Counted from the first letter of the stretch, positions 184 through 63,028 are shown. The stretch is DNA of 64,000 nt from an uncultured virus (IMG/VR IMGVR_UViG_3300037419_001565) (IMGVR_UViG_3300037419_001565); one strand, 5' to 3'. The notes: generated from the letters alone by a model not told the origin. Numbers and translations are program-made.

Positions 184-230
184 TCATCTCCCCAAAACCT
201 TTCAATCTCAATAATCAGAGGGCCGAACAC

Positions 231-407
231 ATGGAACTAGACACCTACGCAGCAATGAGTTTTGAAGAAATAGCCGAACGAATGGGCACGACCGAAATGG
301 CAGTACGACAGACCTATCGGAGAGCGATGACCAAGATCAGGAGTAATCCCGTAGCGGTTTATGAGTTGAAGCGGGCGTGTGCGATGGCGAGAGGGGAATA
401 TAGGTGA
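231..407 (+). CDS. stand-alone sigma region-4-like HTH protein (58 aa)
   Basis: Manual translation MELDTYAAMSFEEIAERMGTTEMAVRQTYRRAMTKIR...; GTGA overlap with the sigma gene. Confidence 0.65.
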   Translation: MELDTYAAMSFEEIAERMGTTEMAVRQTYRRAMTKIRSNPVAVYELKRACAMARGEYR

Positions 408-985
408 CCGAGCGGGACTCAAACTCAATCTTCGCAGACTACATCACCGCCGACGAGGGCGAGGCGTACAAGTTCGAGCAGGAGCTGATTGCCGAACTCA
501 AACGCTATGCCTACGCCATCTGCCTGCTCACTCTCAAACAACCCCGAAAGGACATCGTGGAGGAGTCGATCCAAAAAGCCCTCACCCACGCCAAGAAATT
601 CCGCAACGACAGCAAGTTCTCGACCTGGTTCCATGCGATTGTCAAGAACCTGTGTATGTCGGCTCAGAAGTCGGACCTCAAGCGCCGGAGCAGGGGAGAG
701 GTGTCGATGGAAGATTTGGAAGACTCCGATCCCGAGAGCAATCAGGATGTCGAGGCCGAGACGACCGCGCAGATTGATTTGGAGCGGGTGACAGAGGGGT
801 TGGGAGAGTTGGAGCGACAGGTGCTTCATCTGCGGATGCAGGGGTTGAGTGAGACGGAGATTGCCAAGGAGTTGACTCTCTTACATAAGCCCTCAATCCC
901 CTTCAACAAACAGCGTGTGCAGCGGATTTTTCGACGGATAAAGAAGAAATGTCTTGACAAGATAATGGGGAATATAGGAGAGTAG
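404..985 (+). CDS. ECF-type sigma-70 factor
   Basis: Region 2 (DIVEES...KFRNDSKFSTWFHAIVKN) and region 4 (LGELERQVLHLRMQGLSETEIAKEL). Confidence 0.9.
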   Translation: MTERDSNSIFADYITADEGEAYKFEQELIAELKRYAYAICLLTLKQPRKDIVEESIQKALTHAKKFRNDSKFSTWFHAIVKNLCMSAQKSDLKRRSRGEVSMEDLEDSDPESNQDVEAETTAQIDLERVTEGLGELERQVLHLRMQGLSETEIAKELTLLHKPSIPFNKQRVQRIFRRIKKKCLDKIMGNIGE

Positions 986-3506: not shown

Positions 3507-3699
3507 GTTTGGACGAGATGATGACGTACTCACAGCACACGCTTCCGACGTGTCTGATGCAAGTCATCCCTCAATCGGAAGTTGAGGCACATGTCACCAC
3601 CGTAGTAATTCAGGATGCTGCGGCTCGTCCAATTCAATTTTCATCTCCCTCAAAAACCTTTCCATCTCAACTAATCGAAGAAAGCAGGCCGAACTAAAG

Positions 3700-5125: not shown

Positions 5126-5257
5126 ATAGGTTTTCAGCGGCGGCACTCACGCGGAGATGCTCACACCGTTCACCCAGTGGTGTGCGGGATAGATCAAACG
5201 GTCAGTACCCAATCTGACCCGCTGGATTGAATTCATAATTGAAAGGTTTTGAGGGAG

Positions 5258-5473
5258 ATGAAATTCTATTCTTCACGCCAGCTCGCCGTGATAATGGGGA
5301 TTCCTGAGGGAACACTTCGCTCCTGGCGGGCAACCGGCGTCGGTCCTAATTGGTACAAATTAGAGGGGTCGATAAGGTATAGTGAAACCGATGTACGCAC
5401 GTACCTTAACTCCAACAGGCGTATCTCATCCGCACATGCTTTCGTTCAGGAGAAAGCAGATGGCGGTTTTTAA
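5258..5473 (+). CDS. excisionase / AlpA-type HTH
   Basis: QLAVIMGIPEGTLRSWRATGVGP...IRY; immediately upstream of integrase. Confidence 0.8.
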   Translation: MKFYSSRQLAVIMGIPEGTLRSWRATGVGPNWYKLEGSIRYSETDVRTYLNSNRRISSAHAFVQEKADGGF

Positions 5474-6709: not shown

Positions 6710-6921
6710 AAATGGATTTCCAAACTGCATCTCCCTCAAAAACCTTTCCATCTCACTTATGTCAGCACCCACTAACCTCAGCTCGAATCCCGATTCGGTA
6801 CTTTAGTCACCGATGAAATGCCTGAAACCCGCATTTTTCGCAGATAAAAGTGAAGATTACTATTGACAATGGGGAAAATCGTCTTATGCTTAATCCCACT
6901 AGGTTAGTGAGTACTAACATG

Positions 6922-9211: not shown

Positions 9212-9321
9212 ACAAATTCGCTGCCGTTAAGAGCTAGCTAAGACGGATGCTCCATGCGAGATATTCCACTCGGACAGCGGAGTGGCGGCAGCAATCACGT
9301 AATTGAAAGGTTTATTGGGAG

Positions 9322-9690
9322 ATGTCCTTTACAAATCCACCTTACACATTCAACGACTACGACTCCGAGGTTGGGGATCTCGCCGTGTATCCGCACATCG
9401 GCTCCAATCTCATCTATCCCGCTCTGGGATTGATTGGCGAAGCCGGAGAGGTAGCGGAGAAGGTGAAGAAGCTGTGGAGGGACAAGAACTTCGCTCCCGG
9501 TGAATCTCAACCATTGGATAAGGAAACCCAACTCCTTTTGCTTAAGGAAATCGGAGACGTTGTGTGGTATTGCAACGCTCTGGCGAAGGAGTTGGGTTCA
9601 ACCCTCGAACATGCGGCGCAGATCAATAGCTACAAGCTCCGTGATAGGGCTGCGCGGAATGTGGTTCATGGAGAGGGTGACAATCGTTAG
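9322..9690 (+). CDS. mazG: MazG-like NTP pyrophosphohydrolase
   Basis: YPALGLIGEAGEVAEKVKK...EIGDVVWY...GEGDNR. Confidence 0.9.
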   Translation: MSFTNPPYTFNDYDSEVGDLAVYPHIGSNLIYPALGLIGEAGEVAEKVKKLWRDKNFAPGESQPLDKETQLLLLKEIGDVVWYCNALAKELGSTLEHAAQINSYKLRDRAARNVVHGEGDNR

Positions 9691-12687: not shown

Positions 12688-13005
12688 ATGAAAAGAATAA
12701 GTGTCACAATCCTACTCCTAACCACTCTGGCAACCGCCAAAGCAAAGCTCCCCGTCACCCTGAAGGCGATTAAGGGGAAGGATCGGTTCGTGATTGTTCA
12801 GCCGTTTGTGGCTTCGACTTTTGTTGCCGAACAAACCGAGGGCGCGAAAGTGTTGGACTCCCAGGTGGTCCAGTGCGAGGAAAAGCTCGAAGACCTCGGG
12901 ATGGTCGAGGTGAAGGGTGAGAGGTACATGGCCGTTCAGACGGTTTTGGTTTGTGAGGGTGGGAGGCGGTTGGTGGTGAAGGGATTCAGGATTGGGGGTA
13001 ATTGA
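12688..13005 (+). CDS. hypothetical exported protein
   Basis: MKRISVTILLLTTLATAKA signal-like N-terminus. Confidence 0.55.
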   Translation: MKRISVTILLLTTLATAKAKLPVTLKAIKGKDRFVIVQPFVASTFVAEQTEGAKVLDSQVVQCEEKLEDLGMVEVKGERYMAVQTVLVCEGGRRLVVKGFRIGGN

Positions 13006-13796
13006 AAGGTTTTGTGGGAGATGAATTATGAAAGTTTTTCTAATCGTTATCGGAATCCTACTGCTGTTGTATTGGCTGCTCGATAAGGCTGTGAATTGGA
13101 AGGGGTGGAGGGAGTAGTGGGTATTAGAGAGTGGCTGAAGGGACTATTCGGAATCTTTGAGCCAGAACTTTGCAAAAAACACGGCACAGAACTTGTGTAT
13201 CGCAGGGAGCATGTGGGAGGACATGAATTTTGGGAAATTGGTCCTTTTTGTTACGAGTGTGAAACCGAAGAATGGTTAGCAAGACAAAAATCATCTCCCT
13301 CAAAACCTTTCCATCTCAACTATGACGAAACCTACTACTAAAGCCCTCTTCCACGCGCTTCTCGTCGGATGCGCTCTGATCGAACTCCGCCAAAGCAAGA
13401 GCGACTTTCGCAAGATGGTTTGTGGGGCGTGGGCGGGGTTTCACGCGGTAGCAACTGGGTTGCACGTAATAGAGAAAGAGTAAGGGAATATGAAAAAAGA
13501 CAGGAAACAAAAACTCTGGGAACTCTGTGAGCGATTCATTGAGGAACAAGACATTACTTCTGGGGAATGCATTTATCAAAGCGACCGTGTAATTGAGAAC
13601 GCTTATGAGTTTATTGAAGACGTTTGCGAGATCGCTGGTTATAAGCCTTTCGAGGATGCGTAGTTGTATGAGTGAATGCAAGCACAAAGAAATCAAGTAC
13701 GTCGAAACCCACGTTGCACCTTATTACCTAGAACACCATTGGGAATGCGCGTGGTGTGGCACAGAGTTTAAGCCGGTCGAGGAAAAGGGAAAATAA

Positions 13797-16780: not shown

Positions 16781-16912
16781 TGAAATGCAAACGCTGCTCC
16801 TCAACATTCAAACCACCCCTGAAAGTGTGGGGAAATTGTTGTCCAGCTTGTGTAAAGAAGATGCTCGCTCCTGATGCGTGGCGGGCGTTGCAATTGAAAG
16901 GTTTTTAGGGAG

Positions 16913-17071
16913 ATGCTCTGTCGTTTAGGTTTTCACAAATGGGAAGGGAAGAAGAAATTACAAGAAAGCTTCCCTGTGTGGCGTTGGCTTTATGAATGCA
17001 CTCGTTGCCACAAAGAGCGTGTTTACACGCGAGTTGTTAGCCAAGTAGGAGACTACGAGGGTTGGGAATAG
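16913..17071 (+). CDS. small Cys/His protein (MLCRLGFHKW...CTRC)
   Basis: Manual translation; ATG supplied by a motif-A copy. Confidence 0.55.
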   Translation: MLCRLGFHKWEGKKKLQESFPVWRWLYECTRCHKERVYTRVVSQVGDYEGWE

Positions 17072-17275
17072 ATGTCGCTTAGTTACGTAACAAAGTGTGA
17101 TGCCTGCCAGAAGGAATTGCGGTCAGATTCGGGATGGGATGACGACCTTCATGGCTGGATCACCGCACAACGCCAAGGAGACAACTGGCGCAGGGATTAC
17201 TGCACGTCATGTTGGGATACGGTCTCTCGCCTCCTAACTCACATCTCCCCCAAAACCTTTCAATCTCAACTATGA
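17072..17275 (+). CDS. small Zn-finger protein
   Basis: CDAC...CTSC. Confidence 0.55.
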   Translation: MSLSYVTKCDACQKELRSDSGWDDDLHGWITAQRQGDNWRRDYCTSCWDTVSRLLTHISPKTFQSQL

Positions 17276-19228: not shown

Positions 19229-19431
19229 ACTGCTCCGACTATCCATCTCCCTCAAAACCTTTCAAGCGTTCCCTTACTCACACGCAAATCCGTCAGTGGA
19301 TGACAGAGAACGGTTACAACGAAGGAGGAGACAGGAACTTATTCGTTTGGTATTACGAAAAAGGAAAGGGGAATAACTTGATTCCCCTTGAACAGTTGCT
19401 GTCAGATTTTAGAGACTTCCTACTTAGTTAG
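19225..19431 (+). CDS. hypothetical protein
   Basis: ATGA overlap; last gene of the + arm. Confidence 0.45.
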   Translation: MNCSDYPSPSKPFKRSLTHTQIRQWMTENGYNEGGDRNLFVWYYEKGKGNNLIPLEQLLSDFRDFLLS

Positions 19432-20200: not shown

Positions 20201-20398
20201 TTAGGTACTTTGGTAATCCGACAATAGTTTGTCTAGCCAGCAATCGCCATAATGGTTTGTTCTTAGGACATCGTGGAGGCATTTACAAACAGGACAGCGA
20301 CCTTCACAGACTTCCAGCTCCCGCAAAGCCCTTTCTAGGCTCACAATCCGAGCTTGAAGTGCGTCCACAATTGAAAGGTTTTGGGGGAGATGACTCAC
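20201..20398 (-). CDS. hypothetical protein (coiled coil plus CxxC)
   Basis: ATGA overlap with recombinase. Confidence 0.5.
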   Translation of the reverse strand: MSHLPQNLSIVDALQARIVSLERALRELEVCEGRCPVCKCLHDVLRTNHYGDCWLDKLLSDYQST

Positions 20399-27838: not shown

Positions 27839-27864
27839 CTCCCAACAAAACCTTTCAATCTCAC

Positions 27865-38781: not shown

Positions 38782-39132
38782 CTAGACCAAAGTGGTCGAG
38801 GCTGAGACTTTTTTGAAGAGTCGAATCTCTTCGTCCTCTGCGGGACGAGATTTCTTGGTGTCCATCTGCGCAAACATGCGGAGATCGGCTTCCAGCAAAT
38901 CAATCGCTCTCACCATCGCTTGCAGATGGGGAATTAACTTCGCATCGGTCTCACTCACCAGCTTGCTCTGCGCGACGGCTTTCTTGAATCGCAGCGATGC
39001 GAGGATGTATTTGAACCCGTCCCGATATTGAAGTTGTTTGAGGTCAAGGAGAGTGGATTCAGTGAGAGTGGGTTTCTCGGCGGTGGTTTCAATCACCAGC
39101 GGACGGACGAGGGATTTGAGGTAACTAATCAT
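38782..39132 (-). CDS. hypothetical protein (between portal and scaffold)
   Basis: ATG overlaps the end of a motif-A copy. Confidence 0.55.
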   Translation of the reverse strand: MISYLKSLVRPLVIETTAEKPTLTESTLLDLKQLQYRDGFKYILASLRFKKAVAQSKLVSETDAKLIPHLQAMVRAIDLLEADLRMFAQMDTKKSRPAEDEEIRLFKKVSASTTLV

Positions 39133-39160
39133 TGAGATGGAAAGGTTTGGGGGGAGATGG

Positions 39161-39340
39161 TTAAAGTTTTTCGGCACAATCCGCGCAGGCGATGAAAGTC
39201 ACGTAAGGTCGGGTGATGATTTCGTACTCTTCAGTCTCGTAATAACTGAGCATCCGATCACACAGGAAGAGGCGGCAGTTCTGAATGCCCATCGAGGTTC
39301 GTTCGAACTCAGGGTCGAGAATGGCTTCGCCACATTTCAT
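39161..39340 (-). CDS. small Cys-containing protein (59 aa)
   Basis: Manual translation MKCGEAILDPEF...IACADCAEKL; bracketed by inverted motif-A copies. Confidence 0.5.
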   Translation of the reverse strand: MKCGEAILDPEFERTSMGIQNCRLFLCDRMLSYYETEEYEIITRPYVTFIACADCAEKL

Positions 39341-39361
39341 CTCCCAAAACCTTTCAGTTAC

Positions 39362-41533
39362 TTAGCCGTTCCCAATCTCACCCATCTGCCCAAGTCCGAG
39401 CGAGTTCGCACCCACTCCCTGAGCACTCAGACGGCTCTCGGAAGTCGTGCCCGCGCCGGGGATTGAGCCTTCCATTTGGGTCGAAGGCTTACGTCCCCCG
39501 CCCCTGCCATCGTTCGATCCGCGAGGTTTGGAGTCCTTTGAGGACGAGCCGAGGGCTGGTTTTCCCCCGCCTTTCTCGTCCTTGCACATGCACGCGGCTT
39601 TCGCCTTGGCCTCGATCAGAATGAGTTCCTTCTGAAGTTCGAGGTATTGCATCTGCAACATCTGTTGTTGTTGCGCTTGCTGATTGGCGGCATACTCTTG
39701 GTCGGTCATCACCAACTCTTGCCAACCTGGGATTTGGAATTCCTTGAACAGCCTGCGGAGTCCCGCACCCTCTTTCAGATACCCGCTCTCCTTCGCAATA
39801 TTCGCGAGTGCCATCAGATTGCGCTGCCTGACGGTCTTGTTCGAAGCATAGTTTGCGTCGTTCACCACGAAATCGAACTGCCCGATAATCTGCTCAGGGA
39901 TGAGCATCTCAATCTTAGGAATGCCCGCCTGCTCATCGGTAATGAGCATCTCTTCCTCGTTGGTCACAAACTGCTGAATCATCGAGGCGGTCATCTTCAA
40001 CGCGGGACGAAGGATGTCCCGACCGATGTTGCGGATGAATTGCTTGAAGCGGAAATTGCTCTCATTGATGATGGAAGCGATTCCGGTCGCGGTGCCGTTG
40101 TCGCTCGGAGCACCCACACCCTTCGAATAGAAGTCGCTCACACCCGAACCCATCTCACACATGCCGCGAGTGAGTTCGATCATCTGGTAGTCACCCTGCT
40201 CAGGTTTGAGAATCGGAAGCGGGAACATCCAGGTCTTCGGGTCGCCTGAGCCAAACACCTTCCCACCGGGCACGTTCGCGTTGTTGAGCGAATCGTGGTC
40301 AACATCCGCATCGGTGTTGATGCCGTAGCGGGCATTGACTCCCATGTTCCAGTTATCTTCCAGAATCCCGACTTGCTTGGAAAGGTGCTCGTTCAGCTCG
40401 GCAATCGTCTCAACCGCGCTGATGCCGTAAATCTCGTTCGGGATCTTGATGTAGGAGGTGGTGAGGATCGGGATTTGCTTGTGCGCGAATTGGTTCTTGC
40501 CCGCATACAACACAACCGTCTTCCCGCCGTACATCTGCCGATTAAAGGAAGAGGAGTTAAGGGCGCGAAGAGCGAGTCGAGCGTCTTTCCAAGAAAGTCC
40601 ATCTTGGTCCTTGCAAGTGAGTTGAACCACACTCCCATCAATCCGGTTCCACACTTCCGCAAACCGAATGATGACGTTCAGCGGTTCCTTCTGCGTGACA
40701 AGGTGATTCTTGATTTCATCCAGCGCCTCGGGAAAATAGAGGTCTTCGCCCGTTTGAGCCTTGAAGCCCTCAGCCTCACGAATCATCTCCCCCAAAGACC
40801 TTTCAACTATGTGCCCGATGTAGATACCGTTCGGATCAACCAAAAGGTCGAACGGGTCGATAGGGATGAACTTTGGACGGTTCCGCTTAACGGGTTTCTG
40901 CGCGGGACGGAAGCCAATCGGAGGTTGGTTCTGGTCAGGAGTCATTTGAGGTTGACCAGTCTGCGGGTCAACCACCATCTGCATCACAGGTTGGCCGTTA
41001 GCGTCGGTCTGTGGTTGTCCTGTTTGGGGATCAACAATCGGCTGGGTGACGGGAGCCAACGGAAAAACCGGTTCCTTGTAATCCACGATGTCGTAGCCGT
41101 GGTCCCAATCGACCTTGAGGCCCGCAAGCCGATAGATACAAGCATTCTTAATGACCGGCTGAAAGCCCGTTCCAATCGCATCGGCCCGCTCAAGCTTGTA
41201 CTTGAGCACCGTCCCCATCTTCTCCGCCGCAGGCTGGTCGGCCATTCCCTCGCCGTTGCACTCAAACCAATCCCCATCAGGAAACAGAGCGTCATCCACT
41301 CGGGAGGTAATGGTCTCAACGTTCGACTGCGGATAGGGGAAGAAGAGGTTCGATCTCTTCGTCACGCCATCAGGAAAGAACTGTTGTTCGCGATAACCGA
41401 CGAATTGCTTGTAGAAGCGGAAGTTCGCAGCATCGTTGAGCCGCCTGAAGAAAAGCATCTGCTCAACACAAGCCTCGGTGTCGGTTCGGAGTTTTTCTTC
41501 AGCCGCAATCTGTTCGGGGGATTTAGTTTCCAT
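39362..41533 (-). CDS. portal protein
   Basis: 723 aa; IDPFDLLVDP, IPNEIYGIS, TATGI motifs, Gln-rich C-terminal barrel. Confidence 0.85.
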   Translation of the reverse strand: METKSPEQIAAEEKLRTDTEACVEQMLFFRRLNDAANFRFYKQFVGYREQQFFPDGVTKRSNLFFPYPQSNVETITSRVDDALFPDGDWFECNGEGMADQPAAEKMGTVLKYKLERADAIGTGFQPVIKNACIYRLAGLKVDWDHGYDIVDYKEPVFPLAPVTQPIVDPQTGQPQTDANGQPVMQMVVDPQTGQPQMTPDQNQPPIGFRPAQKPVKRNRPKFIPIDPFDLLVDPNGIYIGHIVERSLGEMIREAEGFKAQTGEDLYFPEALDEIKNHLVTQKEPLNVIIRFAEVWNRIDGSVVQLTCKDQDGLSWKDARLALRALNSSSFNRQMYGGKTVVLYAGKNQFAHKQIPILTTSYIKIPNEIYGISAVETIAELNEHLSKQVGILEDNWNMGVNARYGINTDADVDHDSLNNANVPGGKVFGSGDPKTWMFPLPILKPEQGDYQMIELTRGMCEMGSGVSDFYSKGVGAPSDNGTATGIASIINESNFRFKQFIRNIGRDILRPALKMTASMIQQFVTNEEEMLITDEQAGIPKIEMLIPEQIIGQFDFVVNDANYASNKTVRQRNLMALANIAKESGYLKEGAGLRRLFKEFQIPGWQELVMTDQEYAANQQAQQQQMLQMQYLELQKELILIEAKAKAACMCKDEKGGGKPALGSSSKDSKPRGSNDGRGGGRKPSTQMEGSIPGAGTTSESRLSAQGVGANSLGLGQMGEIGNG

Positions 41534-42140
41534 GAAGTTTGAAAAGGAGGAGAAGGATGTTGTTCACAACGGCGGGAATCACTTCCCATGCATCCCACCA
41601 AAAGGGGAGGGAAGCGAGGAGGGGATTTTTGGTGGCGCGGAGGATGAAGTAAGAGGGGAGAGCAGCGTAGAACAGAGTGCAGAGAGCCTTTACGCTAATC
41701 CCCAACGAGAGAACGAACTGGAGCGTGTAGGGATCTCGCATGTAGGGGTTTGACTCAGAGAGTCCGACCCGCATTCCCAACATGGTTGAAATGATGTCGA
41801 GGAAGTGGATGAGCAGGCAGAAACCGACAGCCCACCCCAAAACATCTCCCTTAAAACCTTTCAGAAACTTCACTTTCCTAAGCTTTGGGAGATGGGTTTT
41901 CGCGTGGAAAAAGAGCGAAATAACGAGGCCGATAAGAAGAATTTCCAAGGGGGAGCTTTCGGAGGGATTGAGATGGAAAGGATTTGAGGGAGATGGAGGG
42001 GATAACTGAGGAGTAACTACCTTGTTATCTTTCCCGTTTCCGTAATAGACTTGCTGGCCTGTTATGGAACGACTGCTAAAGCTGCTCCGTCGCATGTGGA
42101 ATGCGATAAACGAAGAAGATCCGAACCACCTCGAAAACAC
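41523..42140 (-). CDS. membrane protein (DUF5658-like); real start probably downstream of 42140
   Basis: LDIISTMLG...ESNPYMR plus TM segments. Confidence 0.5.
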   Translation of the reverse strand: MFSRWFGSSSFIAFHMRRSSFSSRSITGQQVYYGNGKDNKVVTPQLSPPSPSNPFHLNPSESSPLEILLIGLVISLFFHAKTHLPKLRKVKFLKGFKGDVLGWAVGFCLLIHFLDIISTMLGMRVGLSESNPYMRDPYTLQFVLSLGISVKALCTLFYAALPSYFILRATKNPLLASLPFWWDAWEVIPAVVNNILLLLFKLHGN

Positions 42141-46810: not shown

Positions 46811-46873
46811 TTTAGATTTTTCCTAGGCGGGGATTGAGAGGGAGGTAATTGAAAGGTTTTGGGGGGATGAAAA

Positions 46874-47092: not shown

Positions 47093-47427
47093 TGTTGAGA
47101 TTGAAAGGTTTTTGGGAGATGTTTAGTTGAGCTTCTGTCCGTTCTTCTCGACTTTGAAATCGGAAATCAGATCCTCAACAGTAGTGAACTTTCCCGACTT
47201 GATGCCCTCCGCCCAGTGATGCACGAGGTCTTGAAGCATTTGCACCTTGACGTAACTTTGCGAACTGTCACTCGATGCAACCGCGTAGAGAGCGTTTACT
47301 TCCACACACGACGCGCATCCCATCACCTCAGGCATGACTGAACCTCTTCCGGTGTAGCCGTGTAGCGGGCATGACGGGACGATGTAGATTCCCGTTGTGT
47401 CTTCTTGATGTTTGGGAGTTCTCTTGC

Positions 47428-49877: not shown

Positions 49878-49947
49878 GGGAGGAGTGGGTGAGTTGTTGA
49901 GATTGAAAGGTTTTGAGGGAGATGAAAAGGAGGTCTAGCCTCCCTTT

Positions 49948-50593: not shown

Positions 50594-51025
50594 CTTTACC
50601 AAGGAAAATTATTCATCATCCTCATCTTCCTCAATCGGCGTGATGAACCCAATCGCAGGGGGTCTTTCCTTAATCAGCTCACTCACCAGCTTTGCCAATC
50701 GGGAGTCGATCATGCGCGTGAGGGCAGCTTTCTGGCGGGGGTTGAAGGGAGGGCGTTTGGGCACGGTAAGTGAGATGGAAAGGTTTTTAGGGAGATGTTA
50801 TTCAGCGGCGAATAGTTCGCAGAGGCAGTTGTTGATGCGCTTGTTGTGACGACCGGAAGGGCATCTATCCCCGATGGGGATCTCAGCCGCAGGCCCACCG
50901 AACTCCTGCACCTCGGGGCGCGAGGAGGACTTGACGATTGGATAATTGGAGAAAGTGGAGTTTAAGAATTTCGTCATTTGTCAACCCTAGGTATACAAGT
51001 CCATCTCCCTGTAAACCTTTCAATC

Positions 51026-51472
51026 TCAATTCGGCAGTTGGGTGAGATCCACCGCCTGCTCGCCCTCACCCTTCAACTTGCGCTTCATCGCGTCGATGTC
51101 CTTCGCGCTCAGGCCCGCAAACACGTTGATGGCTGATTCCGCCCCCACATGCCCTTCGGCCTTCAAAATATTCATCCCTACATTCGCGGCCTTCTCCCAG
51201 GCGTCGTCGTTCATAAGCCGGTCCATACAAATGACCATCTTCCCGATGGTGGTGTTCTTGTCCCGCTGGGGATCGGTCGCAATCTCCTTCGCAATCTGAT
51301 TTCGGCGCTGGTAGAGGACTTGTTGGAAAGCCGGATTGAGGGAGAGTTTCTTAGCTTCTTCGTCTCGGAGTCCCAAGCCCAGCTCGACGGAAGCCTGCCA
51401 AACGGTCTGGTTGTTCCTGACCATCTGTTCGGCGAGGCGGGCGAAGTAGGGTTCTTCTTTGCGGGGAGCCAT
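51026..51472 (-). CDS. probable terminase small subunit
   Basis: 148 aa, helical, upstream of terL; C-terminal GLSAKDIDAMKRKL. Confidence 0.55.
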   Translation of the reverse strand: MAPRKEEPYFARLAEQMVRNNQTVWQASVELGLGLRDEEAKKLSLNPAFQQVLYQRRNQIAKEIATDPQRDKNTTIGKMVICMDRLMNDDAWEKAANVGMNILKAEGHVGAESAINVFAGLSAKDIDAMKRKLKGEGEQAVDLTQLPN

Positions 51473-53893: not shown

Positions 53894-53919
53894 CATCTCC
53901 CATAAAACCTTTCAATTAA

Positions 53920-55461: not shown

Positions 55462-55637
55462 AGGAGCAAACTCACATGTCCAATCTCTTCGCAACCCTCT
55501 ACATCTACCGCTGCGGCACCACTTTGAAGGGATCGCAGAGGGTGAATCATTATCGTTCGCGCCTGAGTGGGCAGCATTGGGCTGTGAGGGAACTTGGCGG
55601 TTTCTGTCTGATTTGAGATTGAAAGGTTTTATGGGAG

Positions 55638-55847
55638 ATGAATATGCCACACGAAAAATACGAGCCTGACTTCAGCGGCGAAGATTGCTTCATCAACTAT
55701 TACGAATGCCCGCGCTGCCACGAAAAATGGACGGACACTTGGAGCTGCCAAGCAGATGACGACTGCCCAAAGTGTGGCTTCCGGCACGTTTCGCCGTATG
55801 ACTCTGAGGACATTCTTAACCGCGAGGATCAGGAGAACGAATCTTAA
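55638..55847 (+). CDS. small Zn-ribbon protein
   Basis: NYYECPRC...WSC...DDDCPKCG; bracketed by inverted motif A. Confidence 0.7.
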   Translation: MNMPHEKYEPDFSGEDCFINYYECPRCHEKWTDTWSCQADDDCPKCGFRHVSPYDSEDILNREDQENES

Positions 55848-55892
55848 CCATCATCTCCCCGAAAAACCTTTCAGCCACCGCACGGGCCACGA

Positions 55893-56911: not shown

Positions 56912-57082
56912 TCATCTCCCTCAAAAACCTTTCCATCTCAATTTCTCACGTATAACAGGGAAAATAAGTTGACAAGCACGAGGGAAGATGCGAGACTTAA
57001 AGAGTGATCTAAAGCACGGTCTGTGCAAACGCGAAGAGTGGGAGAGCTAGTCGGCTTACGGCGAGGAGGAGAGGAGCAGTAG

Positions 57083-60000
57083 ATGGCATTCACTGTCGAA
57101 GTAAACGGAAAGACTTTCATCGTTAATACGAACGTGACGCACGAAGGCAAGGAATACAGATACGAGTTCAACGGTTTGAGTTGCAATCGCCTGGACTGGA
57201 TTGCTGAACGAATCGCTGACCAGGTTCATGACGACATCCTCAAAAAACTTGTGCTGGCAGAAGCAGACGAGGTGCAGGCATGAGCGCAGGAAAGCACACG
57301 GCAACACCGGCCAGGAGCAAGTCGTTTATTCGTCGTTTGCGCGAGCGAGGTGCTAAGGACGCGCAAGCTGGCAAGCCCATTGATGCGTTTTACAAGCTGC
57401 CTTATGACCGGCATTACGAGTGGATGCGTGCCGCTTACGAAGTCGGATGGCGTGACGCAATCGCCGCCGCAAAGGAGCAGACCCGATGAGCGCCAGCCGC
57501 AAGCCACGCAAGTTGTCGGAAGTTGAGGCGCAGAACATGTGCGACGAGTTCAACTCGAAACATCCCGAAGGGACGCAGGTTCGCTTTTGGTCGGGAGTCC
57601 GCGAAGGAGACGGCCAAATCGGAACCGTGAGCTATGGAGCGCACCCTATCGGGAACATCCCCGGCGTGTATGTCGAGGATCGCGGATTCATCGCCATGAC
57701 ACACATTGAAGTTTTGCCGCAGGAGGCCGCCGATGAGCGCCGACGCTAAGCCCACCCCCGTAGCCCCAACGTTGATGGCTCCAGGACACACGCCGGAAGG
57801 ATTGGGAATCGCCGCAGCGCGGCGACTGTACTCCCTAGGCAAGCTCCTCCACGGCACAGGCCGTGATGACGAAATCGTAGCCGAAGCAGCAGACGTGATT
57901 GACGCCATCGCCGCCCTCGGTGAGCCGCCAGCCGCGCCAGCGCAGCTAGAGCGTGACAAGTTCGGCGAGTTGCCCTATGCGGAAGTTCTCGACCGGCTTA
58001 CTCCGCTGATTCATAACCAGGAGTTTGCGAAGGCCGCCGACATTCTGCGCGAGGTCGCAAACTCAAAGCTCTACAAATCGAACTGGTTGTGTGGTTGTTA
58101 TGTGTGTGGCAAGGCAGCACAACCGAAGGAGCGGCATCATGTGTTGTTCTGTGAAGAGCACTTCAGAGAAATCACAAATCGCTTCCGTCTAGACTTCACC
58201 GCCGCCCCCTCAGGGACAGGAGAGGCCGCAGCGCCCGCCCAGGAGGAGACCCGATGAACAACCTACACACAGGCTCAATCCTGGACGACCTACTGGATGT
58301 GGTTGAGATGTGCGAACGCTTACATGATCCCGCGTTGGCAGAACGCAATCGCCAGAGGCGAGAGCAGGAGATAGACGACAAGCTGGCCGTCACCACGGCG
58401 AGGAGGGGATAGATGGGCGAGACAACGCTTGAGAAGTTGCAGAAGCAGTTGAAGCAGGCTGAGTCCGAATTGGATTCAGCGAAGCAAAACTTGGCCGATA
58501 CAAAGCGGGAGCTTCAACAGATGGAAAACGAGTACCGCGCATCGCTGACGCGAGTTTATCAACTACGTGCTTCGGTAATCGCAAACGGCGGAGACCTTGG
58601 AATCGCGGAGTAGGCGGCCCCACAACCTAGGAGGAGGACAGAGAGCATGACGATGAAACTGAGTGAAGCGATTTTGTTAGGTGACGTTCTCAAAAAGGGA
58701 ACGAATGATGCATGGATTTCAGAAGACGGTTCCTGCGGGTGTGCTTTCGGTGGTGCGCTGCTAGCTGCTGGTATCACCGCTCAGCAGTTCCGTTACGAGA
58801 TGCGAGGCTGCCGGTCAGCAGACGAACCGGGATGCGTCAAGCAGCGTTGGCCTTGGTTGACCGAAGAACACCTCATCAAAATCACCGGACTGTATGACCG
58901 CGTAATGAAGCAGTGCGGAACCATTGAACAGGTCGCCGACTACGTCCGCTCCATCGAACCGGCAGAGCCGACGCAAGCACCCTCCCACGCAGAGACCTTC
59001 CAGGATCTGGAAGCCGATGTCGATGTGGGCCAGCGATGAAGCCCTCCACTATTCGCGCAGCCTTGGTAGCCATTGGTGCCGAGTTAGGAGTGACGCTGTT
59101 TTGGTTTGCATTTGTGAAGTTGGCGTTGCGGTAGGAAGCTAGTCGGCTTACGCCGAAGGAGAAAGTGATGGCAAACAACAAGATGTCTCCGCAAGAAGCG
59201 GTTGATGACTTCAACAAAATTTGTCTCCTTGAACGGGACAACTTCGATTTGAGTAAGGCCGCCTATATCGGGCTTGAAGAAGGTGGCCTGTATTTCGGCA
59301 AGAACTCTGAGTCGATTTGCCTAACGAAAAAAGAGTTTGAAGCAGCGTGGCAATGGTACACGGCCAAGCAAGAACTATCGGGCAGCCGATAGCGTCCAGA
59401 GATCGGAACAACCGCAGAGCGAGTGAGCGGGGAGAGGAGAAGGATATGGCAGCACGGATTTGGTTGTTTTTGAGAATTGTCTACAGAACTGACTGGACTG
59501 GCGGTCGGCTATCGCCGAGCGATGCGTGGGAGATTTCGGCCATCGTTCACGGAGTGCGCCCATGACCACCCTAGCGACGATCCTCGACAGGACGAGGGAT
59601 CTACTTCTCGGCTGCACACATTCAAATGTTTCCTGGCCTCAAGGCAGGGGAGCCGATTGTCACATCAACTGCAACCAATGCGGGAAGCGTTTTCGTTATG
59701 ACTGGCGGACGATGAGGACCATAGATCATCTCCCCAAAAACCTTTCAAGTATGCAGGAATGGCAATAGAGGGGGGCAGGAGACGTACATGACGCTACTCA
59801 GCGAATTAGCGGCTAAACATCAAGCAGAAAGAGTCGCTTGCGGTTTCGATGACGAGGACTTAACAGGCTGGTTTCTGGCCTTCGGGCGAGAGCTGCTGAT
59901 GAAGATGGCGGAGGAAGCGGAAAGATTCGACGACTGCGGAGAGTGCGAGCAAGGGTTAGAAGTCGCCCGCCGTCTGCGGGAGCTTGCTTCGGCAGGGGAG

Positions 60001-62865
60001 GGGAAGAATGGCTAAACGTGAAGGACCAGTAGTGGAGGTCAGGCGGTCATGTTTCGACTGCAAGTATGAGCGCAGCAAGCCTTATCGCTGCCAAGGCGAT
60101 TCTGGCATGGATGTCTATTGCTCACATCCATCGTTTGGAACGCCAAAGACTATCGGGGATACAACGTGGGTAACTCCCGATTGGTGCCCGTTTTTAACGC
60201 CATCACCGACTCAAGCCCCGCAATCGGAACAGGTGAGCAAGGAGCAGCGATGAAACCAAGCTTTATTGGATTGTTAGCAATGACACTGTGCCTGAATGCT
60301 TGCGCTCAGACGAAGCCTAAGGCTGCGCAGAAAACAGAAAAGCCTCAGTGTACTTACGATGGCACGACATTCGGCGTTAGCGGCGGCGGTTGGGACACGA
60401 GCATTATCTCCTGCATCAACGGCAAATGGACCGTCGATGAGGCCGCTACCAAAGCGATGCATGAACGCGAGGAGAAAGAGCGGAAGCACAGGCACGACCT
60501 TTACTGGGCGTTACGAACTCGGGTTTTGACTCCGCAAGAGATGAAGGAAGTCGAGCAATACGACTATTACCTTGTCGTGAATGAAATTGCGGGGTATTCG
60601 CAAGAAGAAAAACTGAAAGAGTTTAACGACGCCTTGTTGCAGCAATTCAAGTTGCAAGCCGCTTCTGCGAATAAGTCATCTTGCGATCCCAAGGAGCAGC
60701 GATGAGCGATTTCGGCGAAGGAAAATTCGTAATTGGTCGCAAAGACCATATGTGCATCGGATGCATGGGCAAGATTGCCAAAGGGGAACGCCACTATCAC
60801 TACACCGGAGTCTGGGAAGGCGATTGGCAGAACTGGCGGCTTCATACGAGGTGCGAAGAAATCTCCCGCACGATGGACTTGTCCGATGGATTCGTAGGTG
60901 GATTTCTAAACGATGAACTTACGGAACAACAGAAGGCCGCCGGGAGCCGCGCATGACCGCTAACCGATGGGCGTCGAAAGCCGCCGATGAAATCTTTTCC
61001 CTGTTTAAGAACGCTAGCTATTTCTCGACTCGGAACGCCGAGCATCGCGCACAGATGTTGGAAGGTTGGGCGCAAATTATCGAGCGAAACGCGGCGGACG
61101 CAGACAAGCAGGAGCAGCCGAGCGAACTGCCAGCCGATGGTTGTATCTGTCGCGGAAATTGGAGAGAAATCGTCGCCGAAACCGAAACCATGATTGGTAA
61201 AGAATTTGTGAATGAACACGATGAGCGGTTCAGGCTGTTCGGAATTGTCCATGCCGATGACGACTATTACTACGGAATGCACGGCGAATCTGGGATGCGG
61301 CTGCTGTCGTGCGTCGGAAACATTGAAAGTTTTGGTTATCGTCTCGTCGCCCCATCCGTCGTGGAGGCCGCGCCCGCCATTGAAGTTATTGAAGCGGCAA
61401 TGGATGAGAGTGATGACTTGGCTGAGGAACTTCGTCACCTCAAGGCGCTGATGGACAAGCTGGTAAGGGCTGTTCGCTTTGAGGAATCAAAGGGAACAAT
61501 TTCGCTGTGCCAAGACGCTATTTGGCTGTTGGATGACTGCGAAAAGGCCGCCGCCCCGCAATCGGCGCAGCCGACGCAGCAGGTCGCACACTTCTGTCAC
61601 AAGTGCGGAGGCGAGATTACCCGCTACCCATCGCCACCTAAGTGCAGCAAGTGCGGTCACGTTGCAAGCATCAAGGAAATTCTGGCCGCCGAGCGGAGCA
61701 CGGGCAGCCCAGCAGCGGAGGAGAGGAAATGAGCATTCGCGATTGGCTTTTCTGTCACTTTCACAACATCTGCTACAGGCATCGAGTGGACAAGATTCTA
61801 ACCATGAGCGTCGGAGGGAATCTCTACTTCTATTGCCCAACGTGCAGAGAAGAACGCCAGAAGAAGTATGCAGAGCGTCGGAAATGTTTGGGAGTAAATC
61901 ATGCCGAAATGTGATTGCGGAAAGTACGACCTATTGAGCATCTTCAGCGAGAAGCAAGACGGGAACATCGTGCATAGATGGCTCGCTGGATGCTCGTCGC
62001 AGCGAAGCGAGACGACGGAAGACCAAGACTCGGAACACTCAGCAGGAGAGCGCGGGCGCACCGAGGAGGGCAGCAATGGACGCAAGTAAGCGCGAAGAAA
62101 ACAGGCCGGGAAGTCCTAGTCACGCCGAGAAATATCTTCGCGGGTATCTAGGCGGGTCAATCAAGCTGCGCGACGACCAGATTCTGCCGCTCACCCTCTG
62201 CTTGGTGCAGTATGGCGCGACATGCGCGGTTGCCGCTTACAAAGATTCCGAGCGTGTGATGGCCGAGAAGGTGGACGAAATCATTTCCTTTCGCCGCGAC
62301 CCGAACAATGGTGCAGGACTGTGGGCGGTCTTCGTGAACGAACACCCGATTCATCATTTCCGCGCCGATCAAAACGTCACCGCCTACATGGAGAAACTGG
62401 CGGCGAACATGAAGGCAAAGCTGAAAATCTACGACGAAGAGGAGCGGGAGGGCAGCAATGGACGCGACTAAGACGCAGCAGCCGGAAATGACGATTGAAC
62501 GCGCACAGGAGTTAATCGAGAGCGACCTGTGGCCTAGACAAGCGGAACTTCTGCTCAGGGCATCGAGGGCTGCGCTGCGCTCGCTATCCCGTGTACGGGC
62601 AGAGAGGGATTTCCAAGCAGAAGAAGCACAACGTGCAAATGATGCCCTTGAATACCACCAGCGCATGGAAGCCGCTTACAAAGACTCGTGGCAACAAGCA
62701 TCCACCCGCGTTGAGGCTGCTGAATCGGCGTTAGCCGAAGCAAATCGCCGCCTTGCGGAAATCGAAATCATTTCAGGATCGGCGACATGCGACGGCATGG
62801 ATTGGGCCGTGAAGCGAATCTACGAGTTGGCGGGCGGGGCAGGCGAGGGCGGAGATCCTAAATGA
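57083..62865 (+). other. run of about 20 short, translationally coupled hypothetical early genes (e.g. 57083, 57280, 57486, 57733, 58413, 58647, 59788, 60250, 60702, 60953, 62076, 62458)
   Basis: Strong RBSs and ATGA overlaps; no recognisable families. Confidence 0.65.
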
Positions 62866-63028
62866 AACGCCGTTGGTTCACGATCCATGAACTCGACGTG
62901 GTTGAGAGAGCAGCAGCCGAAGTAATCCCATAACTGAAAGGTTTTGAGGGAGATGATTTCCACAACCTCTCCCCATTGACAAACCCCTTTCGCCGTCTTA
63001 AAAGAGAAAATAACGGGGAGGATAAAAG

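What the first reader, a model, noticed from the sequence alone, without database searches (positions are those of the whole stretch)
185..62955. About 37 copies of an asymmetric 22-28 bp motif spread across the whole phage genome
Seen: consensus TTGAGATKGAAAGGTTT-N3-5-GGGAGATG, with two conserved blocks (GAAAGGTTT and GGGAGATG) around a variable spacer. CATCTCCC-orientation copies start near 185, 3642, 6728, 13292, 17242, 19244, 22045, 27836, 32523, 35270, 39338, 40784, 41843, 51002, 53894, 55852, 56913, 59727. Opposite-orientation copies start near 5239, 9303, 13002, 16894, 20371, 22103, 26656, 28181, 30563, 32559, 33743, 39132, 41968, 46849, 47095, 49897, 50771, 55613, 62935. That is about one per 1.7 kb, in every module. 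Most lie at gene junctions, but some are written into portal, endolysin and ejection genes. Known: mycobacteriophage stoperators and start-associated sequences are dispersed but shorter and oriented with transcription; these occur in both orientations. Inference: a genome-wide binding grid for a phage protein (silencing, genome compaction or looping, protection, packaging) or a recombination site. Candidate binders are the TetR, the 7872-8198 protein, the RHH proteins and the second recombinase.
Basis: partly seen in the sequence, partly recalled or inferred. Interest (0 to 1): 0.92.

Follow-up and report, generated by a model that had tools for sequence, protein, structure and literature searches.

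The report
Two-block repeat at phage gene junctions
A soil phage carries 38 near-identical copies of a two-part DNA word in either orientation, mostly squeezed exactly between genes; selection clearly keeps them, most likely as docking sites for a phage factor, but what they do is still unknown.

Summary
The motif GAAAGGTTT-(1-4 nt)-GGGAGATG occurs 38 times in 64 kb: 35 perfect, 3 with one mismatch, none with two. Chance predicts 0. It is found only in this phage. Two relatives at 45-50% protein identity lack it, and no host-like genome with many copies turned up.

- **Position:** 27 of 38 copies sit in gene gaps (random placement gives about 5), often touching both the stop and the next start codon.
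- **Orientation:** it does not follow transcription (16 sense, 22 antisense).
- **Close neighbours:** 9 of 10 pairs less than 400 bp apart are inverted.
- **Sequence:** both blocks are invariant, while the spacer varies in length and sequence but avoids C.
- **Intragenic copies:** those in the portal gene and in gene 25246-26754 were built by substitution inside conserved coding sequence, so they are selected rather than inserted.
- **Sense copies:** at least six supply the ribosome-binding site and ATG of a gene.
- **Long-form antisense copies:** six end 0-3 nt before the next start codon.

Best reading (about 0.35): recognition sites for a phage-specific sequence-reading factor at gene junctions. 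This resembles stoperators, but the orientation rule is not met. Main rival (about 0.25): an RNA-level junction element. The transposon-end, recombinase-site and promoter readings are weak. I class it as a new variant of a known kind of dispersed phage repeat.

The parts
185..211 (-). copy 1, long form (with TTGAGATT), spacer TG, antisense to local genes; starts 1 nt after the stop of ORF 1-183; 19 nt before ATG 231 (58-aa sigma-region-4-like HTH)
3642..3670 (-). copy 3, long form, spacer TTGA, antisense; in the poorly assigned stretch 3313-3738
5241..5260 (+). copy 4, short form, spacer TGA, sense; its ATG (5258) starts a 71-aa HTH_17 (excisionase-type) ORF upstream of integrase 1
6728..6756 (-). 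copy 5, long form, spacer TTGA; between integrase 1 (5460-6497, +) and the TetR gene (6922-7749, -)
9305..9324 (+). copy 6, short form, spacer ATT, sense; its ATG (9322) starts the MazG gene
13004..13023 (+). copy 7, short form, spacer TGT, sense; overlaps the stop of 12688-13005; a small membrane-like ORF starts 4 nt after the copy's ATG (13028)
13292..13319 (-). copy 8, long form, spacer TGA, antisense; ends 2 nt before ATG 13322
16896..16915 (+). copy 9, short form, spacer TTA, sense; its ATG (16913) starts a 52-aa ORF
17242..17269 (-). copy 10, long form, spacer TGG, antisense; ends 2 nt before ATG 17272 of the primase/helicase gene (an in-frame ATG at 17209 is an alternative start)
19244..19263 (-). 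copy 11, short form, spacer TGA, antisense; 15 nt after the stop of 18404-19228
20373..20392 (+). copy 12, short form, spacer TGG, antisense; 2 nt from the stop of integrase 2 (20395-21318, -)
22045..22064 (-). copy 13, short form, spacer ACA, sense; within ORF 21818-22603; forms a hairpin with copy 14
22105..22124 (+). copy 14, short form, spacer TTG, antisense; within ORF 21818-22603
26658..26677 (+). copy 15, short form, spacer GTG, antisense; inside gene 25246-26754 at about codons 26-32, aligned to a relative's coding sequence
27836..27864 (-). copy 16, long form, spacer TGTT, sense; its ATG (27838) starts gene 27491-27838; fills the 26-nt gap to 27865
28181..28209 (+). copy 17, long form, spacer TATT, antisense; preceded by a run of 13 G and a degenerate copy at 28156
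30563..30590 (+). copy 18, long form, spacer TGA, antisense; fills the 32-nt gap between stop 30592 and ATG 30559 (3 nt from the start)
32523..32542 (-). copy 19, short form, spacer TGA, sense; 14 nt upstream of ATG 32508; forms a hairpin with copy 20
32557..32583 (+). copy 20, long form, spacer AT, antisense
33743..33770 (+). copy 21, long form, spacer ATT, antisense; abuts ATG 33742 (0 nt) and overlaps the stop of 33758-34366
35270..35288 (-). copy 22, short form, spacer AT, sense; inside the endolysin gene (Hydrolase_2)
39132..39159 (+). copy 23, long form, spacer GGG, antisense; overlaps start codon 39132 by 1 nt and lies 1 nt from stop 39161
39338..39355 (-). copy 24, short form, spacer T, sense; its ATG (39340) starts a 59-aa ORF
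40784..40804 (-). copy 25, one mismatch (GAAAGGTCT), spacer TTGG, sense; inside the portal gene (about residues 241-250), ATG in frame; aligns without a gap to two relatives
41843..41862 (-). copy 26, short form, spacer TAA, sense; at the start region of 41523-41873; predicted to pair with a partial CATCTCCC about 30 nt upstream in the RNA
41968..41995 (+). copy 27, long form, one mismatch (GAAAGGATT), spacer TGA, antisense
46851..46869 (+). copy 28, one mismatch (GGGGGATG), spacer TG, antisense; in gap 46811-46873
47095..47121 (+). copy 29, long form, spacer TT, antisense; 2 nt from ATG 47092 and 1 nt from stop 47123
49897..49924 (+). copy 30, long form, spacer TGA, antisense; 19 nt upstream of the terminase start (49877); follows a terminator-like hairpin
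50770..50797 (+). copy 31, long form, spacer TTA, antisense
51002..51029 (-). copy 32, long form, spacer ACA, sense; overlaps the stop of 51026-51472
53894..53913 (-). copy 33, short form, spacer TAT, antisense; starts directly after stop 53893 and is followed by a terminator-like hairpin (53922-53942)
55613..55640 (+). copy 34, long form, spacer TAT, sense; its ATG (55638) starts a 69-aa ORF
55852..55872 (-). copy 35, short form, spacer TTCG, antisense; 4 nt after stop 55847
56913..56941 (-). copy 36, long form, spacer TTGA, antisense; 1 nt after stop 56911
59727..59746 (-). copy 37, short form, spacer TTG, antisense
62936..62955 (+). copy 38, short form, spacer TGA, sense; 73 nt upstream of the Clp-type ATPase gene (63029)

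Best explanation
The 38 copies are recognition sites for one phage-specific, sequence-reading factor, most simply a phage-encoded DNA-binding protein with two reading heads. One head reads GAAAGGTTT and the other reads GGGAGATG. At the usual 3-bp spacer the two blocks lie about one helical turn apart, centre to centre. The long form adds a second GAGAT two turns upstream. The sites are kept at gene junctions all over the genome. Shown: one family, extreme conservation of both blocks, junction placement, both orientations equally conserved, creation of copies inside genes by substitution, and restriction to this phage lineage. Also inferred: bound sites act as junction-by-junction roadblocks or insulators of transcription, working in either orientation, and occupancy at sense copies would also cover the ribosome-binding site and ATG of the downstream gene. 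The binder is unidentified. Lineage-specific DNA-binding candidates are the 58-aa sigma-region-4-like HTH (231-407), the TetR protein (6922-7749), the 108-aa protein (7872-8198) and the ribbon-helix-helix-like proteins (54056-54364 and 54592-55080).
For: (1) Selection on the word itself: 35 perfect copies, 3 with one mismatch, 0 with two. Only 3 of 646 block positions are changed. The spacer has 20 variants of 1-4 nt, and the flanks carry almost no information. (2) Copies are written into conserved coding sequence by substitution. Portal VERSLGEM aligns without a gap to LEKSYGAF (G003) and TEKTLGQI (G004). The single mismatch in that copy falls in the codon aligned with Ser/Thr in the relatives. 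In gene 25246-26754, AISPQTF aligns to GVDPSTM in G004. One of these copies is sense and the other antisense. (3) Both orientations are equally conserved, and orientation is unrelated to transcription: 16 sense, 22 antisense, p=0.42. (4) 27 of 38 copies lie in gene gaps, against a random mean of 4.9 and a maximum of 14 in 2000 trials. (5) The motif is lineage-specific. Relatives G003 and G004 share 13 and 18 genes in synteny but show no over-represented word, and G003 has ordinary ribosome-binding sites at the homologous junctions. No multi-copy host genome or other virus was found. (6) There is precedent for invariant phage-specific dispersed sites that are read, or presumed to be read, by a protein: stoperators (PMC9283540, passages), the 17-bp Cluster O repeats (PMC4351075, passages) and SPBRE/MrpR (PMC10516654, passages).
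Against: No binding test was possible and no binder is identified. Spacer length varies from 1 to 4 nt, which is awkward for a rigid protein. The spacer avoids C (3 of 114 letters) and the whole sense strand is nearly C-free (4 C in 760 core letters). This is easier to explain for a single-stranded RNA or DNA role than for duplex binding. The long form is tied to transcription direction (14 of 18 antisense against 8 of 20 for the short form, Fisher p=0.025), and six long-form antisense copies end 0-3 nt before a start codon. At least six sense copies are the actual ribosome-binding site plus ATG of genes. 9 of 10 neighbour pairs under 400 bp apart are inverted (p=0.014). No copy lies in the two divergent control regions where a lysogeny repressor would be expected to act.
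Confidence: 0.35

Rival explanations
1. The copies are an RNA-level junction element. The transcribed sense form is an unstructured, C-free leader with two purine-rich ribosome-binding-type blocks and an AUG. The antisense form is its G-free complement. Within polycistronic early and late mRNAs, the complementary forms pair as local hairpins, as panhandles around small genes, or between transcripts. This pairing would occlude or expose translation starts, or create double-stranded RNA for processing. The need for mutual complementarity would keep both blocks invariant, while the spacer is free as an internal loop.
For: The sense copies' ATG is the start of at least six genes: 5258 (HTH_17 aligned from residue 3), 9322 MazG, 16913, 27838 (the homologue in G003 aligns from residue 1), 39340 and 55638. 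Six long-form antisense copies end 0-3 nt before start codons: 13322, 17272, 30559, 33742, 39132 and 47092. The spacer varies in length but avoids C, and the sense strand is C-free. 9 of 10 close neighbour pairs are inverted; five of them enclose a short stretch, in four cases one or two small ORFs, in the order sense-gene-antisense. Local pairs fold into stable hairpins that bury the sense copy's AUG (-24.2 and -36.2 kcal/mol, z -4.6 and -3.2). The long form correlates with antisense orientation (p=0.025). Late genes mostly lack ribosome-binding sites and have G-poor leaders, of which the antisense copy is an extreme case.
Against: There are no expression data. Most copies have no partner nearby. 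Overall alternation of orientation is not significant (23 of 37, p=0.12). Inverted close pairs can also be explained by selection against deletion between direct repeats. About half of the sense copies start no gene. The blocks are invariant, so covariation cannot be tested. A genome-wide network of one shared pairing module has no precedent that I know of.
Confidence: 0.25
2. The copies are DNA repeats that spread by copying and mark the ends of gene cassettes or recombination substrates. They could be terminal inverted repeats of small mobile cassettes, sites for the second tyrosine recombinase, or linkers for the phage's own Sak4/exonuclease recombination.
For: Nine spacer variants occur exactly twice, including unlikely ones (ACA, ATT, TAT, GGG). 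Copies 2539, 39140 and 13004 share a further 10 nt downstream. Three short copies share the left flank TCCACAAYT. New copies therefore arise from old ones (partly by eye). Five short stretches, four of them with small ORFs, are bracketed by inverted copies. Both integrase genes are bracketed by convergent copies. Copies 17242 and 20373 have 23 bp of perfect inverted identity and the same 5 nt (ACTCA) outside both ends. The phage encodes an exonuclease, a Sak4-type annealing protein and two catalytically intact tyrosine recombinases.
Against: There is no tail of decayed copies. The spacer is diverged while the blocks are invariant, the opposite of neutral decay after insertion. Intragenic copies arose by substitution, not insertion. 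The 3.15-kb 'cassette' 17242-20392 is not a recent insertion, because G004 has DNA polymerase, primase and the integrase-2 homologue in the same order. Only 4 flank matches of that kind (three exact 5-mers and one 6-of-7) occur in 703 pairs, two of them A/T-rich. The site has no dyad symmetry and no shared 6-8 bp overlap. No transposase was found. No joints at copies appeared in four runs (weak).
Confidence: 0.12
3. The copies are promoters, or parts of promoters, for the phage's sigma-like factor(s) encoded at 231-985.
For: The phage encodes a sigma-like protein (Sigma70_r2, 3.7e-07) and a separate 58-aa region-4-like HTH (8.7e-09). TTGAAA or TTGAGA hexamers lie at the left of the site. The consensus scan flags four copies through these hexamers: two long forms as TTGAGA-17/18-GATGAT and two short forms as TTGAAA-16-AATTAT and TTGAAA-16-GATAGT. 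The 6 nt after the site are A/T-rich.
Against: 22 of 38 copies would fire antisense to the genes. The conserved blocks are only 1-4 nt apart, not the spacing of two promoter elements. The long and short forms would have different geometry. Sense copies are part of the mRNA, since they supply the ribosome-binding site and ATG. Promoter-like hits are no more frequent than in shuffles (13 against 12.9, and 7 against 11.8).
Confidence: 0.05

Closest known systems
Stoperators of Cluster A mycobacteriophages (L5 gp71-type monomeric immunity repressors)
   Same: These are asymmetric sites, with more than 20 copies spread over the whole phage genome, mostly in short gaps between genes. A two-domain monomer reads an asymmetric sequence (PMC9283540, passages read).
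   Different: Stoperators are 13-mers of fixed length, and their orientation follows transcription; reversed sites fail. The same site also serves as an operator at promoters. The present site is 18-21 bp (up to 29 bp in the long form) and bipartite with a variable spacer. It is oriented 16:22 relative to transcription and is absent from the divergent control regions.
Start-associated sequences (SAS/ESAS) of Cluster K mycobacteriophages
   Same: SAS is an asymmetric, phage-specific repeat that contains a ribosome-binding-type core next to start codons, mostly ATG, and is absent from the host (PMC3203893, passages). At least six sense copies here work the same way.
   Different: SAS is 13 bp, lies 3-7 bp upstream of starts, is almost always in one orientation and is restricted to the non-structural half of the genome. 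Here the ATG is part of the motif, 22 of 38 copies are antisense, and all genome modules carry copies.
17-bp repeats of Cluster O mycobacteriophages (Corndog)
   Same: There are more than 30 dispersed copies with invariant arms and a variable centre. Many are intergenic and about a third lie in genes. They are not tied to promoters, their function is unknown, and they are presumed to be protein sites (PMC4351075, passages).
   Different: Those repeats are palindromes with a fixed 3-bp centre. The present motif has no dyad symmetry and its spacer length varies.
SPBRE elements bound by MrpR (YopR) of Bacillus prophage SPbeta
   Same: SPBRE is a repeated intergenic element of one phage, read by a monomeric repressor with a tyrosine-recombinase fold (PMC10516654, passages). 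The present phage has a second recombinase gene.
   Different: MrpR has lost most catalytic residues. Integrase 2 here keeps the Arg, His-x-x-Arg, His and Tyr positions in alignments to solved recombinases.
Dispersed asymmetric operators of the phage P1 C1 repressor (recalled, no paper read)
   Same: As I recall, these are many monovalent asymmetric operators scattered over a phage genome in either orientation.
   Different: As I recall, they sit at promoters of separate operons. Here most copies lie inside long operons at stop/start junctions. This comparison rests on memory only.

Membership tests
Stoperators (Cluster A mycobacteriophages) | Many asymmetric sites in short intergenic spaces across the genome | tested here: met
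   38 copies; 27 overlap predicted coding sequence by at most 3 nt, against a random mean of 4.9
Stoperators (Cluster A mycobacteriophages) | Site orientation correlates with the direction of transcription | tested here: not met
   16 sense and 22 antisense, binomial p=0.42; the rule is taken from PMC9283540
Stoperators (Cluster A mycobacteriophages) | The same site also acts as an operator at early lytic promoters | tested here: not met
   No copy lies in the divergent regions 8199-8405 or 51998-52772. The latter has its own 17-nt direct repeats. Promoters themselves are not mapped.
Stoperators (Cluster A mycobacteriophages) | Bound by the phage immunity repressor as a monomer | not testable with these tools
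   No DNA-protein test is available, and no homologue of such a repressor was recognised
Start-associated sequences (Cluster K) | Located a few nt upstream of start codons and contains a ribosome-binding core | tested here: inconclusive
   True for at least 6 of 16 sense copies, not for the other sense copies or for the 22 antisense copies
Start-associated sequences (Cluster K) | Essentially one orientation; restricted to the non-structural genes | tested here: not met
   Both orientations occur in all three gene blocks
Cluster O-type palindromic repeats | Dyad symmetry (7-bp inverted arms, 3-bp centre) | tested here: not met
   The two blocks are unrelated sequences. Only AAA-GG-TTT inside block 1 is weakly symmetric (read).
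SPBRE/MrpR-type system | Recombinase-fold repressor that has lost its catalytic residues | tested here: not met
   Integrase 2 aligns to XerC-like, IntI4 and other solved recombinases with Arg, HxxR, His and Tyr conserved
Transposon or MITE terminal inverted repeats | Inverted ends with target-site duplications; insertion relative to relatives; decayed copies | tested here: not met
   Only one candidate pair was found (ACTCA flanks), and the enclosed genes are syntenic in G004. Intragenic copies align without gaps to relatives. No copy has 2 mismatches. No transposase was found.
Tyrosine-recombinase core site (including asymmetric shufflon-type sites) | Two binding arms around a 6-8 bp overlap that is identical between partner sites | tested here: not met
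   The spacer is 1-4 nt with 20 variants and there are no inverted arms. No joints at copies were seen in 4 runs (weak).
Sigma-70-type promoter | Two hexamers 16-18 nt apart, oriented toward the gene | tested here: not met
   The conserved blocks are 1-4 nt apart. Scan hits are at chance level. 22 of 38 copies are antisense.
Known RNA families (Rfam) | Match to a curated covariance model | tested here: not met
   0 matches at the gathering threshold in the whole window
Host chromosomal repeat | Many copies in a bacterial genome | tested here: not met
The 80 rows shown each hold one match in an unrelated taxon. The host itself is unknown.

The most novel reading that the evidence does not exclude
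The element works in both orientations at the RNA level. Its sense form is a strong, structure-free ribosome-binding-site-plus-AUG start module. Its exact complement is a G-free leader that abuts other start codons. The roughly 38 mutually complementary modules, spread through early and late polycistronic mRNAs, would pair in cis and in trans to gate translation or trigger processing. That would make one shared 'junction code' coordinating expression of a whole phage genome, kept invariant by the need for mutual complementarity.
Probability: 0.2. Interest if true: 0.85.

Novelty: new variant of a known kind. Interest (0 to 1): 0.62.

Why it matters
Dispersed, phage-specific short repeats are known (stoperators, SAS, Cluster O repeats, SPBRE), but only a few have a known reader or a known purpose. 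This family is unusually informative for four reasons. It is bipartite with a flexible spacer. It is used in both orientations. It is fitted exactly between stop and start codons. It was demonstrably written into conserved genes by substitution, so selection acts on the nucleotide word itself.

If a protein reads it, the system would be an orientation-independent relative of stoperator silencing, with a new two-headed recognition mode. If RNA pairing is the point, it would be a new way of wiring gene expression across a phage genome. In either case the 17 invariant bases give a ready probe for pull-down and reporter experiments. The same phage also shows a clean early/late split in the use of ribosome-binding sites.

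Tried and rejected

**Other viruses.**
- In viral contigs, the only multi-copy contigs are two fragments that are 99.98-100% identical to the window.
- The six other contigs hold one match each.
- The left-half pattern TGAGATKGAAAGGTTT likewise gave only single matches elsewhere in the rows shown; 118 stretches were found and 80 rows were shown.

**Metagenome scans.** The 25-base long-form pattern gave 0 matches. A portal-based search for relatives gave 0 confirmed out of 178 candidate stretches. Portal in viral contigs found only the phage itself. No close relative is therefore available for a synonymous-site or site-turnover test.

**Equivalent motif in relatives.** G003 (63.5 kb) and G004 (65.7 kb) show no comparably over-represented 8-12-mers.

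**Transposon cassette 17242-20392.** I rejected this because the genes are syntenic in G004.

**Dead-recombinase repressor.** I rejected this because integrase 2 keeps its catalytic residues.

**Regular spacing ('grid').** Inter-copy distances range from 42 to 4875 bp with CV 0.77, so spacing is not regular.

**Other negative searches.**
- Rfam gave no match and the tRNA search found none.
- Promoter and terminator scans were at chance level.
- No similar DNA was found in named phage records. Protein-level hits to named phages were only distant: terminase 25-28%, portal 19-28%.

**Sequencing runs.** No RNA holder was listed. The four DNA runs laid (X8-X11) gave only short, low-depth contigs, with no joint at any copy among the rows shown.

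**Earlier findings of this scan.** Nothing was recorded on this genome or this sequence.

**Binder.** I did not fold or dock candidate binders, because no available tool tests protein-DNA binding.

Full report

Yes. The pattern GAAAGGTTT-N3-5-GGGAGATG has 30 exact matches on the two strands of the 64-kb window. None is expected, and 0 of 100 dinucleotide-preserving shuffles reach that count. GGGAGATG alone occurs 41 times against 2.95 expected.

With spacers of 1-6 nt and at most one substitution there are 38 copies, 20 on + and 18 on -. One more copy lies at 2539-2558.

The mismatch spectrum is sharp: 35 perfect, 3 with one mismatch, 0 with two. Hits at 3-4 mismatches are almost all shifted readings of the same copies. 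The exceptions are two degenerate candidates, at 20315 on - and 28156 on +.

- The spacer is 1-4 nt: 3 nt in 25 copies, 4 nt in 7, 2 nt in 5 and 1 nt in 1.
- The left part TTGAGATK belongs to only 18 copies, which I call the long form. The other 20 mostly have NAAYT at that position.

**2. What is the window?**

It is a phage. PHROG and Pfam hits give terminase, portal, major head protein, tail fibre, internal virion protein, a SleB-type endolysin, DNA polymerase, primase/helicase, ribonucleotide reductase, MazG, an exonuclease and a Sak4-type annealing protein. There are also two tyrosine integrases, a TetR regulator and sigma-like proteins.

Genes run on the + strand in 1-19.4 kb, on the - strand in 19.5-52 kb and on + again from 52.8 kb, with a small - island at 6.9-8.2 kb (my own simple gene model). 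Both ends cut genes, so the genome is longer than the window.

The same phage is present in soil and rhizosphere metagenome runs.

**3. Where else does the motif occur?**

I found it nowhere else.
- In IMG/VR the only multi-copy contigs (G001 and G002) are 99.98-100% identical fragments of this phage.
- The long-form pattern has 0 matches in the metagenome collection.
- The left half alone gives only single matches elsewhere in the rows shown.
All 80 rows shown are single matches in unrelated taxa.
- Two relatives, G003 and G004, have terminase 48-50% identical. They share 13 and 18 genes with the window, in the same order. Neither shows a comparable over-represented word.
- At homologous junctions G003 has ordinary ribosome-binding sites.

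The family is therefore an innovation of this lineage. No close relative was available for comparative tests.

**4. Anatomy of the copies**

*Position.* 27 of 38 cores overlap predicted coding sequence by at most 3 nt, 2 overlap partly and 9 lie inside predicted ORFs. Random placement gives a mean of 4.9 and a maximum of 14 in 2000 trials. Three of the nine depend on doubtful start or ORF calls, which leaves about six truly intragenic copies: 2539, 22045, 22105, 26658, 35270 and 40784. Nine of the 14 gaps of 20-49 nt consist essentially of the motif. An example is copy 30563-30590, which sits between stop 30592 and ATG 30559.

*Orientation.* Relative to local genes there are 16 sense and 22 antisense copies (p=0.42). 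Overall alternation along the genome is 23 of 37 (p=0.12). However, 9 of the 10 neighbour pairs less than 400 bp apart are inverted (permutation p=0.014). Five of them enclose a short stretch, in four cases one or two small ORFs, in the order sense-gene-antisense. Four are antisense-then-sense pairs.

*Conservation.* Only 3 of 646 block positions differ from the consensus. The spacer has 20 variants, and the flanks carry almost no information apart from the left extension. The spacer is not free, however. It holds 3 C in 114 letters, and the cores hold 4 C in 760 letters. One strand is therefore nearly C-free and the other nearly G-free.

*Sense copies.* The motif's own ATG is the start codon of at least six genes:
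- 5258, where the HTH_17 profile aligns from residue 3;
- 9322, MazG;
- 16913;
- 27838, whose G003 homologue aligns from residue 1;
- 39340;
- 55638.

GAAAGG lies 11-12 nt upstream of that ATG. By established knowledge of ribosome-binding-site spacing, that is a workable distance; this is my inference. The other sense copies start no plausible gene.

*Long-form antisense copies.* Six end 0-3 nt before the next gene's start codon: 13322, 17272, 30559, 33742, 39132 and 47092. The long form is mostly antisense, 14 of 18 against 8 of 20 for the short form (Fisher p=0.025).

**5. Were the copies inserted, or did they evolve in place?**

Two intragenic copies can be compared with relatives, and both evolved in place.

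The portal copy (GAAAGGTCT TTGG GGGAGATG) encodes VERSLGEM. It aligns without a gap to LEKSYGAF in G003 and TEKTLGQI in G004. Its single mismatch falls in the codon aligned with Ser/Thr in the relatives.

The antisense copy in gene 25246-26754 encodes AISPQTF, which aligns to GVDPSTM in G004.

The endolysin copy lies in sequence that aligns to a solved SleB-type enzyme.

Copies were therefore written into existing coding sequence by substitution, in both orientations. That requires selection for the nucleotide word.

The family also grows by copying. Nine spacer variants occur exactly twice, including unlikely ones. Copies 2539, 39140 and 13004 share a further 10 nt downstream. Three short copies share the flank TCCACAAYT (read by eye).

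**6. Hypotheses**

*(a) Protein recognition sites on DNA: my best reading, about 0.35.* This explains the invariance of both blocks in both orientations, the in-place creation of copies and the lineage specificity. It also has precedents:
- Stoperators are monomer-bound asymmetric 13-mers in short intergenic spaces. Their orientation is coupled to transcription (PMC9283540, passages).
- The Cluster O repeats are invariant 17-bp palindromes of unknown function, with more than 30 copies, a third of them in genes (PMC4351075, passages).
- SPBRE is bound by the recombinase-fold repressor MrpR (PMC10516654, passages).

Four things count against it:
- The spacer length varies.
- One strand avoids C.
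- The long form is linked to transcription direction.
- No copy lies in the two divergent control regions, and region 52.05-52.7 kb has its own three 17-nt direct repeats.

*(b) RNA-level junction element: about 0.25.* This explains the flexible but C-avoiding spacer and the ribosome-binding-site-plus-ATG use of sense copies. It also explains why long-form antisense copies abut start codons and why close pairs are inverted. Local pairs fold into hairpins that bury the sense AUG (-24.2 and -36.2 kcal/mol, z -4.6 and -3.2). There are no expression data, most copies have no nearby partner, and inverted close pairs could simply reflect selection against deletions between direct repeats.

*(c) Cassette ends or recombination sites: about 0.12.* The best single clue was copies 17242 and 20373, which have 23 bp of perfect inverted identity and ACTCA outside both ends. 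This fails because G004 has polymerase, primase and the integrase-2 homologue in the same order. In addition there is no dyad, no shared overlap, no decay tail and no transposase. Integrase 2 is catalytically intact.

*(d) Promoters for the phage sigma-like factor: about 0.05.* The geometry and the orientation both argue against this reading.

**7. Comparison with known systems**

The family works most like stoperators or the Cluster O repeats: dispersed, invariant, phage-specific sites at gene boundaries. It fails the defining orientation rule of stoperators and of SAS, and it lacks the dyad symmetry of the Cluster O repeats. I file it as a new variant of a known kind, not as a member of any named family.

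The P1 C1 operator comparison rests on recall only. I read passages, not whole papers, for the four papers cited. Their supplements were not opened and do not bear on the claims made here.

**8. Verdict**

The family is real, selected and lineage-specific, and its function is still unknown. Its anatomy is unusually rich and directly testable. Interest 0.62.

Noticed in passing
window 1-19400 and 52800-64000 versus 22000-50000: Early (+ strand) genes mostly have strong GGAGG/AGGAG ribosome-binding sites at normal spacing. Most late (- strand) structural genes, including portal, terminase and major head protein, have none and have G-poor, C/T-rich leaders, several with 0 G in 30 nt. G003 late genes are also weak in such sites but less extreme.
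   Followed up: partly
window 28156-28180: A run of 13 G (28168-28180) lies directly upstream of copy 28181-28209 and is preceded by a degenerate copy (4 mismatches). It sits in the leader of gene 27865-28152 and is a possible slippage tract. Relative G004 also has long C/G homopolymer runs.
   Followed up: no
window 36936-37571: The HNH/LAGLIDADG-like endonuclease gene between the major head protein gene and the next structural gene is missing or replaced by short unrelated sequence in contigs of runs X8 and X11. There is a joint from 36991 to 37571, and other letters lie between 36991 and about 37446. This points to a mobile homing-endonuclease insertion that differs between strains.
   Followed up: partly
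window 30576: One metagenome contig (run X9) has an extra T in the T-run of copy 30571-30590. The spacer length of a copy therefore differs between strains of the same phage.
   Followed up: no
window 52050-52700: The 775-bp divergent region between the late and early blocks has its own repeats: three direct copies of a 17-nt word (52184, 52229, 52312), a pair at 52594/52618 and a 20-nt inverted pair (52201/52273). These are probably the real switch operators. No copy of the dispersed motif lies here.
   Followed up: partly
window 231-985: A 58-aa protein consisting only of a sigma-70 region-4-like HTH (231-407) overlaps the start of a 193-aa sigma-like protein (404-985, region 2 plus a GerE-like HTH). 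G004 has a distant homologue of the latter.
   Followed up: partly
window 5258-6497 and 20395-21318: The phage has two catalytically intact tyrosine recombinases. Integrase 1 has an excisionase-type HTH gene upstream. Integrase 2 is Xer-like, lies beside the tail genes and has a homologue in G004. The role of integrase 2 is unknown.
   Followed up: partly
window 2559-2570, 39163-39172, 13031-13041: The 10 nt AAAGTTTTTC follow three copies (2539, 39140, 13004) at offsets of 0, 3 and 7 nt. At 13028 this sequence forms the first codons of a small membrane-like ORF. It suggests that a copy plus a gene start was duplicated.
   Followed up: no
window 17237-17241 and 20393-20397: The same 5 nt (ACTCA) lie outside the inverted copies 17242 and 20373, overlapping the stop codons of two convergent genes. 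This looks like a target duplication but is probably coincidence, because the enclosed genes are syntenic in G004.
   Followed up: yes
G004 (L295-L298), positions about 1-120 and 65560-65702: Relative G004 repeats the same sequence at both contig ends, so it is probably a complete genome with terminal repeats or a circular assembly of about 65.6 kb.
   Followed up: no
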